DNA of 33,205 nucleotides from a virus (taxonomy: Duplodnaviria; Heunggongvirae; Uroviricota; Caudoviricetes), in the IMG/VR virus record IMGVR_UViG_2617270988_000009; one strand, 5' to 3'. Shown here piece by piece: positions 32,092 to 32,963 of the stretch (its first letter is position 1; each line of letters begins with the position of its first letter). The notes under the pieces were generated by a model that was not told the origin of the DNA, ran no database searches, and saw nothing but the letters and a program-made list of their open reading frames with translations. Both the position numbers and the translations under genes were made by a program.

Positions 32092-32336
32092 CTGAAAAAT
32101 GATTCTTTAAAATACCTGACATGTAATACAGAAAAAACACAAAACCATACCTTAAATAAAAACCTCATCATCAAGCAGATATGCATGGATAAACTACAAG
32201 ACGAGATATAAACCACCCTGCATTTAAATAAACAATAAACAACATCAGAAAAATAATTCTGCTCTATGGTTTACATTCAAAAATATCATTTATACTTTTC
32301 AGAACATCACCAGCAATGCATAAACAAGGAAACCAA

Positions 32337-32672
32337 ATGAAGTGGATTGTGATTGATACAGTTATCCAGCCATCATGCGGAATATCTTTTTCAGTCATAT
32401 GGAGTAAAATAAAATTAATAATCTGGTATCAATCGGATGCTTTCTTACCTCCTGAAAGTATATTTACACTGACTCACACAGGCATCATGCTCAATAACAA
32501 AGTGCTACCTGTAACCATTTACAACGTAGTACCATTCAATAAAACATTCTGGAATTTAATCAAAAACAGCCAGGAATGCCCTACAAATACAGATAACGTA
32601 TTGAATGAATGCTTTAATAACCGTTGCACTCTGCAAATATGTCCTTATGGGCTAAAACAACAAAGTCCATAA
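32337..32672 (+). CDS. hypothetical low-GC protein (111 aa, [15 protein letters not shown]...), opposite strand to the late operon
   Basis: AGGAAA ribosome-binding site 7 nt upstream of ATG; an uninterrupted 111-codon frame in AT-rich DNA. Confidence 0.45.
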
Positions 32673-32706
32673 GGAGTTTACTCACATCTGACAAAATCAA
32701 TATAAA

Positions 32707-32728
32707 CAGCCCCTCCGGAGAGGGGCTG
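32707..32728 (-). terminator. strong hairpin (AGCCCCTC-CGGA-GAGGGGCT) with T-rich tail on the minus strand; candidate late-operon tR'-like terminator, possibly bidirectional
   Basis: Perfect 8-bp GC-rich stem with 4-nt loop; TTTATATTGATTTT follows on the minus strand; also lies 35 nt past the plus-strand ORF stop. Confidence 0.45.
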
Positions 32729-32963
32729 GAGAGTGGCGCTATGTGCCATTGCATGGTGCCGGGTGCCTCCCGGTGAATTCAGTACCAGCACCTGAATCCG
32801 CGATTATCCCATATACCTACTCGCTGATTGCCCCTCCGCACAGGGGGATTCACCATGCCAGTTTCTTTTAACAAACTCCCCGCAAACCAGACAACAGTCA
32901 ACCGCCTGAATTGTGAGACATTTAAAAAAAAGGCCCGCAAAAGCGAGCCAGGGAAAATAAGTG

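What the first reader, a model, noticed from the sequence alone, without database searches (positions are those of the whole stretch)
32092..32960. Shiga-toxin slot between the tRNA cluster and nanS-p holds an opposite-strand low-GC ORF instead
In Stx-converting lambdoid phages the toxin genes lie between the ileZ/argN/argO tRNAs and nanS-p, in the late direction. Here the interval has no stx-like genes; it contains an AT-rich stretch with a 111-aa ORF on the opposite strand with a good ribosome-binding site, closed by a strong GC-rich hairpin (32707..32728) that could act as a tR'-like terminator. The ORF is cargo at a known moron hotspot with unknown function.
Basis: partly seen in the sequence, partly recalled or inferred. 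Interest (0 to 1): 0.55.

Follow-up and report, generated by a model that had tools for sequence, protein, structure and literature searches.

The report
Prophage iraL gene beside empty stx site
The "unknown" opposite-strand ORF is iraL, an already characterised prophage gene whose protein blocks degradation of the stress sigma factor RpoS, and the hairpin next to it is the terminator of a known prophage small RNA, so the finding is real but ordinary.

Summary
The interval between argO and nanS-p has no stx. It contains an AT-rich (GC 0.33), 111-aa ORF on the opposite strand (32337..32672) with a Shine-Dalgarno site, and a 9-bp GC-rich hairpin at 32707..32728.

- **The ORF has a known function.** Its protein is 111/111 identical to IraL (c1429) of uropathogenic E. 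coli CFT073. IraL is an experimentally shown RssB anti-adaptor that stabilises RpoS in log phase (Hryckowian 2014). The published 5'-RACE start maps to 32304. RefSeq annotates the gene as "IraM" in about 27% of complete E. coli genomes.
- **The hairpin is not tR'-like and does not belong to the ORF.** It is the 3' terminator of an STnc100-family small RNA (Rfam RF02076, 132 bits) on the late strand at 32887..32698, convergent with iraL.
- **iraL is not at the stx insertion point.** Compared with 933W and an Stx1c phage, stx inserts between the argO terminator and STnc100 (window about 32921/32922, empty here). iraL lies one element further on, between the STnc100 terminator and nanS-p, where 933W carries the antisense anti-sRNA AsxR.

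Verdict: already known, low interest. The only small addition is the two-site anatomy of this moron region.

The parts
30211..32076 (-). nanS-p-type sialate O-acetylesterase gene (late operon). The mechanical ORF extends to 32091, but the start supported by homology and annotation is the ATG at 32076 (MAFKHYDV...).
   Evidence: Pfam DUF1737, SASA and DUF6645. RefSeq CDS in DLI.5a ends at the position equal to 32076. Homology to 933W, phi296 and Stx1c-phage nanS-p begins at 32077.
32077..32707 (+). The iraL module: about 631 bp of low-GC DNA holding the upstream region, promoter, CDS and 3' tail. It is present or absent as a unit among related lambdoid prophages.
   Evidence: iraL-less phages (Nil3, PhiR5_1, phi296, PPwrbA_EH2201, Stx1c phage) align to the window only up to 32077 on one side and from 32703-32708 on the other. 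GC is 0.33 against 0.45-0.50 for the 205-222 bp that occupy this place in the other phages. Identity to CFT073 over 31923..32928 is 98.7%.
32270..32304 (+). iraL promoter and transcription start: TTTACA (32270..32275), 15-nt spacer, TATACT (32291..32296), TSS at 32304.
   Evidence: The published 5'-RACE end of CFT073 iraL mRNA, ACATCACCAGCAAGGCATAAACAAGGAAACCA, matches 32304..32335 at 31 of 32 positions. The hexamer assignment is my own reading; the paper's figure is not held. The consensus scan missed it because of the 15-nt spacer.
32304..32336 (+). 33-nt 5' UTR with Shine-Dalgarno AAGGA (32326..32330). A window-specific G->T at 32317 creates an in-frame upstream ATG at 32316.
   Evidence: The paper's complementing fragment is '-100 to +33 relative to the TSS', which puts the ATG at 32337. 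Variant positions come from the three-way alignment.
32337..32672 (+). iraL coding sequence, 111 aa plus stop. It encodes the RssB anti-adaptor IraL.
   Evidence: 111/111 identical to CFT073 IraL, WP_000871291.1 / c1429. NCBIfam NF007393 scores 162 bits against a cut-off of 121. PDB 8twd_A IraM gives E=9e-32. Identity to K-12 IraM is 62%.
32698..32887 (-). STnc100-family small RNA gene (related to PasD, and probably to EcOnc27) in the late direction, convergent with iraL.
   Evidence: Rfam RF02076 scores 132.4 bits against a gathering score of 47, covering model positions 1-206 of 206. The same family lies 75 nt after stxB2 in 933W and after stx1B in an Stx1c phage. Published RT-qPCR primers for STnc_100 match the window exactly.
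32707..32728 (-). It is the 3' terminator stem-loop of the STnc100-family sRNA and the right-hand boundary of the iraL module.
   Evidence: It aligns to the terminal stem of the Rfam model, followed by UUUAUAUUG. It is terminator-like only on the - strand. On the + strand it is followed by GGAGAGUGGCGC with no U tract. It is conserved, with one base changed, in iraL-less phages that carry different DNA on the nanS-p side.
32921..32922 (.). Position equivalent to the stx2AB insertion point of phage 933W (site A). It is empty in this window.
   Evidence: Window 33205..32923 equals 933W locus 2129..2412 (92.6%). Window 32920..32750 equals 933W 3745..3926. The 1.3 kb between these in 933W holds stxA2 and stxB2. 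In CFT073 about 640 bp, including a DUF3927 ORF, are inserted at 32929..32951.
32932..32949 (-). Intrinsic terminator directly after argO (GGCTCGCTTTTGCGGGCC followed by TTTTTTTT).
   Evidence: Terminator scan. It is homologous to the feature annotated in 933W as 'possible rho-independent terminator upstream of the stx genes'.
32964..33205 (-). Phage tRNA cluster: argO (tct) 32964..33040, argN (tcg) 33054..33130, and ileZ cut by the window end (33141..33205).
   Evidence: ARAGORN and Rfam tRNA. The same order is annotated in CFT073, DLI.5a and 933W.

Best explanation
The ORF is iraL, a lysogen-expressed moron of a lambdoid prophage integrated at potB.

**Transcription and translation.** It is transcribed from its own sigma-70-type promoter (TSS 32304), antisense to the phage late operon, and translated from the ATG at 32337.

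**Protein function.** The 111-aa protein has an IraM/PmrD-like fold and binds the adaptor RssB. RssB then cannot hand RpoS (sigma-S) to ClpXP. RpoS is stabilised during exponential growth and the general stress regulon is raised in the lysogen.

**Hairpin.** The neighbouring hairpin belongs to a separate gene, a convergent STnc100-family small RNA on the late strand, and is that RNA's terminator.

**Layout in the late direction.** tRNAs, terminator, site A (stx in Stx phages; empty here), STnc100 sRNA plus terminator, site B (antisense cargo: AsxR in 933W, iraL here), nanS-p.

**Shown in the literature, for a protein of identical sequence.**
- RssB binding.
- An effect on RpoS level and half-life.
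- The TSS.
- Sufficiency of the -100..+33 fragment for expression.

**Shown here.**
- Sequence identity.
- Promoter conservation.
- Module boundaries.
- sRNA family membership.
- Absence of stx.

**Inferred.**
- That this particular copy is expressed.
- That IraL contacts RssB as IraM does.
- That the hairpin terminates the sRNA.
For: **Identity and family.**
- Protein 111/111 identical to CFT073 IraL, in the same gene order (tRNAs, STnc100, iraL antisense, nanS-p, holin) in the CFT073 potB prophage.
- NCBIfam IraM subfamily: 162 bits against a cut-off of 121.
- PDB 8TWD IraM: E=9e-32 over residues 1-78.
- 62% identity to K-12 IraM, with all five Cys positions conserved and 10 of 13 published RssB-contact residues identical.

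**Experimental literature (PMC4045071).**
- iraL deletion lowers RpoS level and halves its half-life in log phase.
- Complementation works with the native promoter.
- iraL on a plasmid raises RpoS in K-12.
- IraL copurifies with RssB and interacts with it in a two-hybrid assay.
- The 5'-RACE end matches window 32304..32335 at 31 of 32 positions.
- iraL mRNA or protein also responds to fur deletion and to a 23-to-37 C shift.

**Distribution.** The core iraL region is in 1446 of 5426 complete E. coli genomes. The whole interval is present at >=80% coverage in 1428.

**Hairpin and sRNA.** Rfam STnc100 full-length hit whose terminal stem is the hairpin. The same sRNA lies downstream of stxB in 933W and in the Stx1c phage, with AsxR convergent to it in 933W. 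This agrees with Tree 2014 and with PMC12370729.
Against: - Nothing here measures expression of this copy.
- Relative to CFT073 it carries A for G at -1 (32303) and T for G at +14 (32317). The second change creates an upstream in-frame ATG, and its effect on translation is unknown.
- Pfam has no model for the family, and PHROGs labels the family 'unknown function'.
- The mBio paper reports that IraL's pattern of interaction with RssB subdomains differs from IraM's. The IraM-RssB crystal contacts may therefore not transfer fully; 3 of 13 contact residues differ.
- No - strand promoter for the STnc100 copy was found by the consensus scan, so its expression here is not established.
- iraL has no U-tract terminator of its own on the + strand, and its 3' end is unknown.
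Confidence: 0.95

Rival explanations
1. One reading: a cargo ORF of unknown function occupies the Shiga-toxin slot, and the hairpin is a tR'-like terminator that closes it.
For: The ORF is opposite-strand, low-GC and lies between the tRNA cluster and nanS-p. Pfam gives no hit and PHROG 4407 is labelled 'unknown function'.
Against: The protein is identical to the characterised IraL (PMC4045071). tR' lies upstream of the tRNAs in 933W and Nil3. The hairpin is the terminal stem of STnc100 on the other strand and has no U tract on the ORF's strand. The stx insertion point maps to 32921/32922, about 215 bp beyond the hairpin, not to the ORF's position.
Confidence: 0.03
2. The gene is iraL, but this copy is silent or weakened. 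The -1 A and the +14 G->T change, which makes an upstream in-frame ATG 12 nt from the 5' end, disturb initiation. Alternatively, the defective prophage context silences it, for example by H-NS binding to 30%-GC DNA.
For: Two window-specific or minority changes sit in the -1..+14 region. No complete E. coli genome or GTDB representative carries the exact +14 variant (the second search is limited by the 28-nt seed). The upstream region is only 30% GC. The paper itself notes promoter-variant copies of unknown activity in JJ1886.
Against: Both promoter hexamers, the Shine-Dalgarno site, the start codon and the whole coding sequence are unchanged relative to CFT073. The upstream ATG has no Shine-Dalgarno site and would only add 7 residues in frame.
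Confidence: 0.12
3. The hairpin works in both directions. It ends the STnc100 sRNA on the late strand and also stops or stabilises the 3' end of the convergent iraL mRNA, 35 nt after its stop codon.
For: The stem is nearly palindromic and folds equally on both strands. It is the only strong structure between the iraL stop codon and the tRNAs apart from a second stem at 32735..32760. In other phages the antisense partner has its own terminator abutting this hairpin, and iraL has none.
Against: On the + strand the stem is followed by GGAGAGUGGCGC, not a U tract, so it fails the intrinsic-terminator pattern. No 3'-end data exist.
Confidence: 0.35
4. The interval is a decayed stx locus in which the toxin genes were lost and iraL was acquired in their place.
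For: The backbone is Stx-phage-like: tRNAs, argO terminator, STnc100 and nanS-p match 933W at 71-94%.
Against: There is no Stx1 or Stx2 A/B similarity at E<0.2, with a working positive control. The junction at 32921/32922 is clean, with 2 nt against 1.3 kb in 933W. iraL is at a different site. Many stx-free phages share the empty site A.
Confidence: 0.01

Closest known systems
IraL (c1429) of uropathogenic E. coli CFT073, RssB anti-adaptor (Hryckowian et al., mBio 2014, PMC4045071)
   Same: Protein 111/111 identical. Same promoter hexamers, with 31 of 32 positions of the RACE-defined mRNA 5' end. Same neighbours (STnc100, tRNA cluster, nanS-p, holin). Same chromosomal site, a potB prophage.
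   Different: - The rest of the prophage is different: only the lysis genes and the iraL module match CFT073 by megablast.
- nanS-p is full length here but truncated in CFT073.
- CFT073 has an extra insertion of about 640 bp (DUF3927 ORF) at site A and an IS200 after Q.
- There are two base changes at -1 and +14.
IraM (YcgW) of E. coli K-12, the Mg2+-starvation/PhoP-induced RssB anti-adaptor; structure 8TWD
   Same: Same family (NCBIfam NF007393). 62% identity without gaps over 107 aa. All 5 Cys positions and 10 of 13 RssB-contact residues are conserved.
   Different: - Different locus: K-12 iraM lies next to icdC, just outside the annotated e14 boundary.
- Different upstream region.
- IraL acts in log phase, and the paper reports a different pattern of interaction with RssB subdomains.
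- IraL has a 4-residue longer C-terminus.
- RefSeq nevertheless names IraL 'IraM'.
AsxR/AgvB anti-sRNAs of Stx and other lambdoid prophages (Tree et al., Mol Cell 2014, PMC4104026)
   Same: Same slot and orientation. Each is an antisense, lysogen-expressed cargo between the late-strand sRNA (STnc100, probably EcOnc27) and nanS-p, convergent with that sRNA. Both retune a host global regulatory network.
   Different: iraL encodes a protein and acts on proteolysis of RpoS. AsxR is a 53-nt RNA that sponges FnrS. There is no sequence similarity: no AsxR or AgvB hit in the window at E<=1, and blastn-short found none.
STnc100 (Rfam RF02076), related to PasD, prophage sRNAs
   Same: Window 32887..32698 is a full-length member at 132 bits, in the typical place directly upstream of the sialate esterase gene and downstream of stx where stx is present.
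   Different: The score is lower than for the 933W copy (208 bits). The internal region (model positions about 64-90) is shortened. Function is unknown in any host, and expression of this copy has not been shown.
Shiga toxin operon stxAB of 933W, Sp5 and H19B-type phages
   Same: Same phage region downstream of pR', tR' and the tRNAs. Both are morons.
   Different: stx is on the late strand at site A and depends on Q antitermination. iraL is on the opposite strand at site B with its own promoter. There is no sequence relationship.

Membership tests
IraM/IraL/RssC anti-adaptor family (NCBIfam NF007393) | Whole-protein score above the curated family cut-off | tested here: met
   162 bits against a cut-off of 121, covering model positions 1-113 of 114.
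IraM/IraL/RssC anti-adaptor family (NCBIfam NF007393) | Sequence identity to an experimentally characterised member | tested here: met
   111/111 identical to CFT073 IraL. 62% identical to K-12 IraM. E=9e-32 to PDB 8twd_A.
IraM/IraL/RssC anti-adaptor family (NCBIfam NF007393) | Conservation of the residues that contact RssB in the IraM-RssB crystal structure (clusters I-III) | tested here: met
   10 of 13 are identical. The differences are T13S, H63N and I64V. Caveat: IraL is reported to interact with RssB subdomains differently from IraM.
IraM/IraL/RssC anti-adaptor family (NCBIfam NF007393) | Binds RssB and stabilises RpoS against ClpXP | not testable with these tools
   Shown experimentally for the identical protein in CFT073, S. 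sonnei and K-12 (PMC4045071). Not measured for this strain.
iraL locus as defined in CFT073 | Own sigma-70-type promoter with the mapped TSS and a 33-nt leader | tested here: met
   The RACE sequence matches 32304..32335 at 31 of 32 positions. TATACT lies 7 nt upstream. There are only two changes in -100..+33 relative to CFT073.
Shiga toxin (AB5) operon | StxA (RNA N-glycosidase) and StxB coding sequences or remnants | tested here: not met
   tblastn best E was 0.24 (default) and 0.33 (permissive) in 32000..33000, and nothing below E=1.9 in the whole window. The control hit 933W at 1e-112 and 2e-31.
Lambdoid late terminator tR' | Intrinsic terminator immediately downstream of pR'/qut, upstream of the tRNA cluster and late genes | tested here: not met
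   The hairpin lies downstream of the tRNAs. In 933W and Nil3 the terminators called tR' lie between Q and ileZ. That region is outside this window.
STnc100 sRNA (Rfam RF02076) | Covariance-model score above the gathering threshold over the full model, including the terminal stem-loop and U tail | tested here: met
   132.4 bits against 47, covering positions 1-206 of 206. The terminal stem is 32728..32707, followed by UUUAUAUUG.
STnc100 sRNA (Rfam RF02076) | Expressed as a discrete small RNA | not testable with these tools
   RT-qPCR detection in STEC vesicles is reported for copies whose primers match this sequence exactly. No promoter was found by the consensus scan here.
Moron (Juhala/Hendrix sense) | A discrete insert between conserved phage genes, present or absent among relatives, with deviant base composition and its own promoter | tested here: met
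   Boundaries lie at 32077 and 32707 against five iraL-less phages. GC is 0.33 against 0.53. The promoter comes from the literature. The module has no terminator of its own.
AsxR/AgvB anti-sRNA | An RNA of about 51-60 nt with the conserved 3' region, antisense at site B | tested here: not met
   No Rfam AsxR or AgvB hit at E<=1 in 31900..33205 and no blastn-short hit. AsxR is found at this place in 933W.

The most novel reading that the evidence does not exclude
iraL and the STnc100 sRNA may form a functional convergent pair rather than chance neighbours. iraL has no terminator of its own, so its transcripts would read through the shared hairpin and become antisense to STnc100 and the tRNA cluster. 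In the other direction, Q-antiterminated late transcription after induction would run antisense across iraL. IraL output, and hence RpoS stability, would then be wired to the lysogenic or lytic state of the prophage and to the level of the sRNA. Together with StxS, the tR'-derived sRNA that activates rpoS translation (PMC7547250), this would make the pR'-proximal moron region a recurrent phage 'RpoS control' locus.
Probability: 0.1. Interest if true: 0.4.

Novelty: already known. Interest (0 to 1): 0.12.

Why it matters
As a gene discovery it adds nothing new. iraL was characterised in 2014 and is annotated, under the name IraM, in about a quarter of complete E. coli genomes.

Three modest points come out of the work:
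- **A two-site map of the region.** The region downstream of pR' and the tRNAs has two adjacent cargo sites separated by a conserved sRNA gene. Site A holds stx in Stx phages. Site B holds antisense cargo, either an anti-sRNA or iraL.
- **Gaps in phage databases.** PHROGs lists this family without a function, and Pfam has no model for it. This is why the ORF looks unknown to a naive reader.
- **A recurring target.** StxS, AsxR/AgvB and IraL all sit within about 2 kb of pR' and all retune host global regulators. This may be worth a systematic survey.

Tried and rejected
- **Pfam scan of the ORF:** no family.
- **PADLOC scan of neighbouring unknown ORFs:** nothing.
- **Stx remnants:** tblastn with Stx2 and Stx1c subunits, default and permissive, and blastn of the 933W argO-to-nanS interval. 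These returned only the STnc100 and terminator segments and no toxin similarity.
- **tR' reading of the hairpin:** rejected on position and strand.
- **AsxR or AgvB in the window:** none.
- **Consensus promoter scan:** it did not find the RACE-supported iraL promoter, which has a 15-nt spacer, and it found no late-strand promoter for STnc100. The scan is therefore uninformative here.
- **Source organism:** an exact 42-mer spanning the +14 variant gave 0 hits in GTDB species representatives. A 56-nt megablast found no exact match in complete E. coli genomes, but it is limited by the 28-nt seed.
- **PhoP box:** I considered a PhoP-box reading of GGTTTA at 32268..32273. I dropped it because the second half-site is poor and nothing in the papers read here or in my data supports it.
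- **Searches deliberately not run:** the large protein-database searches and structure prediction, because identity to a characterised protein and a solved homologue made them unnecessary.
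Full report
**1. What is in the sequence**

In this window the phage late genes run on the - strand.
- ARAGORN finds tRNA-Arg(tct) at 32964..33040 and tRNA-Arg(tcg) at 33054..33130, both on the - strand.
- Rfam adds a third tRNA cut by the window end at 33141..33205.
- The large - strand ORF 30211..32091 carries DUF1737, SASA and DUF6645 domains, which makes it a nanS-p-type sialate esterase. RefSeq annotation of a near-identical locus and homology to three other phages place its real start at 32076.
- Between these genes, GC falls to 0.275-0.36 against 0.52-0.58 on either side.
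- The + strand carries an ORF at 32337..32672 (111 aa). AAGGA lies 6 nt before its ATG, and an in-frame ATG at 32316 would give 118 aa.
- A 9-bp, 7-GC stem with a 4-nt loop lies at 32707..32728.

**2. No toxin remnant**

I took Stx2A and Stx2B from phage 933W and Stx1cA and Stx1cB from phiSTEC1589-Stx1c.
- tblastn against 32000..33000 gave nothing better than E=0.24 (default) or 0.33 (word size 2, no composition correction).
- Nothing in the whole window scored below E=1.9.
- As a control, the Stx1c queries found the 933W toxin genes at 1e-112 and 2e-31.

**3. The ORF is iraL**

Sequence evidence:
- Megablast of the interval against 5,426 complete E. coli genomes found it at >=80% coverage in 1,428 of them. 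The ORF is annotated everywhere as "anti-adapter protein IraM".
- The core 471 bp (promoter plus CDS) is in 1,446 genomes, with up to three copies per genome.
- NCBIfam NF007393 (IraM) scores 162 bits against a cut-off of 121.
- The N-terminal 78 residues match the crystallised IraM of PDB 8TWD at E=9e-32.
- Pfam has no model, and PHROG 4407, which the protein matches end to end, is labelled "unknown function". This explains why the ORF looks uncharacterised.
- The protein is 62% identical to K-12 IraM. That value fits the published relation between IraM and IraL, its paralogue in uropathogenic strain CFT073, reported as 58.9% by ClustalW (PMC4045071).
- I fetched the CFT073 potB prophage. Its IraM-annotated gene (WP_000871291.1; c1429 according to PMC12890032) encodes a protein 111/111 identical to the window ORF.

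Promoter evidence:
- The published 5'-RACE end of iraL mRNA, ACATCACCAGCAAGGCATAAACAAGGAAACCA, matches 32304..32335 at 31 of 32 positions.
- This puts the TSS at 32304. TATACT lies 7 nt upstream (32291..32296), and TTTACA at 32270..32275 is separated from it by a 15-nt spacer. The hexamer assignment is my reading.
- The paper's complementing fragment, "-100 to +33", ends exactly before the ATG at 32337.
- Against CFT073 this fragment differs at only two positions, 32303 (-1) and 32317 (+14). The second change creates the upstream ATG at 32316.

**4. What IraL does (literature, identical protein)**

According to PMC4045071:
- Deleting iraL in CFT073 and Shigella sonnei lowers RpoS in log phase and cuts its half-life from about 5 to about 2.5 min.
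- Single-copy complementation with the native promoter restores stability.
- iraL on a plasmid raises RpoS in K-12.
- IraL copurifies with RssB and interacts with it in a two-hybrid assay, in a pattern different from IraM.

Two later reports add regulation data. IraL is up in a CFT073 fur mutant (PMC7157518). iraL mRNA rises 1.6 log2 on a 23-to-37 C shift (PMC12890032).

The IraM-RssB structure paper lists three clusters of contact residues. In IraL, 10 of these 13 are identical and three are substituted (T13S, H63N, I64V). All five cysteines are at the same positions. I infer that IraL bridges the RssB domains much as IraM does, but this is not shown.

**5. The hairpin belongs to another gene**

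- An Rfam scan gave a full-length hit to RF02076 (STnc100) on the - strand at 32887..32698, at 132.4 bits against a gathering score of 47.
- In the alignment the model's terminal stem is exactly 32728..32707, followed by UUUAUAUUG.
- The terminator scan calls this hairpin only on the - strand. On the + strand it is followed by GGAGAGUGGCGC.
- The hairpin, with one base changed, is present in Nil3, PhiR5_1, phi296, PPwrbA_EH2201 and the Stx1c phage. All of these lack iraL and have unrelated DNA on the nanS-p side.
- It is therefore a backbone element, the sRNA's terminator. It is neither the closure of the ORF nor tR'. In 933W and Nil3, tR' is annotated between Q and ileZ, upstream of the tRNAs.

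STnc100 is a described prophage sRNA family of unknown function.
- It has been reported 75 nt downstream of the stx2 operon and detected by RT-qPCR in STEC vesicles. The published primers match the window exactly (PMC12370729).
- A 2026 preprint relates it to PasD and notes its association with the esterase gene.

**6. Where iraL sits relative to stx**

blastn of the window against 933W gives the following correspondence:
- Window 33205..32923 equals the 933W tRNAs plus the terminator after argO (92.6%).
- 933W then has 1.3 kb holding stxA2 and stxB2.
- Window 32920..32750 equals the 933W segment after stxB2 (71%), which Rfam identifies as STnc100 at 933W locus 3778..3983 (208 bits).
- Homology resumes only at the nanS-p start.

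The stx insertion point therefore corresponds to window 32921/32922 and is empty here. In CFT073 about 640 bp with a DUF3927 ORF sit within 10-30 nt of that point.

iraL occupies the next interval, between the STnc100 terminator and nanS-p. In 933W that interval holds AsxR on the opposite strand (locus 3985..4037, 88 bits). This is the "convergent sRNA pair" between the moron CDS and the conserved downstream ORF described by Tree et al. (PMC4104026). In PhiR5_1 the same interval ends with an anti-late-strand terminator of an unassigned transcript. The Stx1c phage shows the same order: Q, stx1A, stx1B, STnc100 (two copies), nanS-p.

The late-direction anatomy is therefore:
- tRNAs and their terminator
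- site A (stx, DUF3927 or empty)
- STnc100 and its terminator
- site B (antisense cargo: AsxR, an unknown transcript, or iraL)
- nanS-p

The iraL module is 32077..32707, about 631 bp at GC 0.33. It replaces 205-222 bp of GC 0.45-0.50 in the other phages. Phage vB_EcoS-733R4 has iraL together with two STnc100 copies. This suggests that the sRNA gene acts as a recombination linker, but I did not test that.

**7. Context**

- Window 4718..9356 carries roxA, pepT, potA and potB, as next to the CFT073 potB prophage.
- Only the lysis genes and the iraL module of the two prophages match by megablast. The same cargo therefore sits in a different mosaic.
- Four phage records carry the module, annotated "anti-adapter protein".
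- A pig STEC genome has it in the same tRNA-to-esterase interval without stx there.
- None of the Stx-converting phage records in the collection matched the iraL part of the query. I did not survey all STEC genomes.

**8. Verdict**

The finding is real but already explained. The ORF is a known, experimentally characterised prophage gene in its usual place, next to a known sRNA family.

The interpretation needs three corrections:
- The function is known.
- The hairpin is an sRNA terminator on the other strand.
- The gene is at the anti-sRNA site, not the stx site.

Open points:
- Whether this copy, with its -1 and +14 changes, is expressed.
- Where iraL transcripts end.
- Whether the convergent arrangement with STnc100 has regulatory consequences.

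Interest is low.

Noticed in passing
window 9719..11080 (+): A 453-aa ORF directly beside potB is the type III secretion effector EspK (NCBIfam NF011913, 1054.7 bits against a cut-off of 934). It has no Pfam hit. Its presence suggests the host is a LEE-positive attaching/effacing E. coli. It also means the prophage carries two host-directed cargo genes, espK at the att-proximal end and iraL near pR'.
   Followed up: partly
window 9371..14816: The prophage looks truncated. The tape-measure gene (11574..14816, -) is followed only by a 113-aa ORF and then by espK and potB. The tail-tip (L/K/I/J) and tail-fibre genes seen in the CFT073 potB prophage are absent.
   Followed up: no
window 1..4499: A P4-like satellite or integrative element lies next to roxA. 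It has an integrase at 3249..4499(-) and a 388-aa ORF at 1472..2638(-) whose C-terminus is Icd-like (host cell-division inhibitor / repressor PHROG). It is partly homologous to the element at the same place in CFT073. PADLOC found no defence-system match.
   Followed up: partly
window 32743..32868 (+): RefSeq (PGAP) annotates a partial 'hypothetical protein' pseudogene at the equivalent position in DLI.5a, CFT073 and STEC388. It lies antisense inside the STnc100 sRNA gene and is probably not a gene.
   Followed up: partly
window 32317 (and 32303): A G->T change at +14 of the iraL mRNA creates an in-frame upstream ATG at 32316, which gives the 118-aa reading. CFT073 and DLI.5a have G. The exact variant was not found in GTDB species representatives or in complete E. 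coli genomes, although the second search is seed-limited.
   Followed up: partly
L006 (933W) 3778..4037; L008 (PhiR5_1) 3440..3500: In 933W, STnc100 (late strand) and AsxR (opposite strand) abut end to end. In PhiR5_1 and in Nil3, phi296 and PPwrbA_EH2201, the same place has an anti-late-strand terminator (GCCCGCG...CGCGGGCTTTTTTT) belonging to a transcript with no Rfam family. It may be an unclassified anti-sRNA.
   Followed up: partly
L005 (vB_EcoS-733R4) 3607..3795 and 4071..4264; L013 (Stx1c phage) 3845..4058 and 4120..4331: Two tandem, diverged STnc100 copies occur in single phages. This is consistent with the sRNA gene serving as a recombination linker between cargo modules.
   Followed up: no
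L011 (K-12 MG1655) 6414..7004: K-12 iraM lies just outside the annotated right end of cryptic prophage e14, after the icdC pseudogene. The IraL paper describes it as being on e14.
   Followed up: no
L002 (CFT073) 41567..41690 and 11721..11844: Rfam STnc490 hits lie immediately upstream of both IS200 transposase genes, one of them between Q and the tRNA cluster of the iraL prophage. They are probably part of the IS200 element.
   Followed up: no
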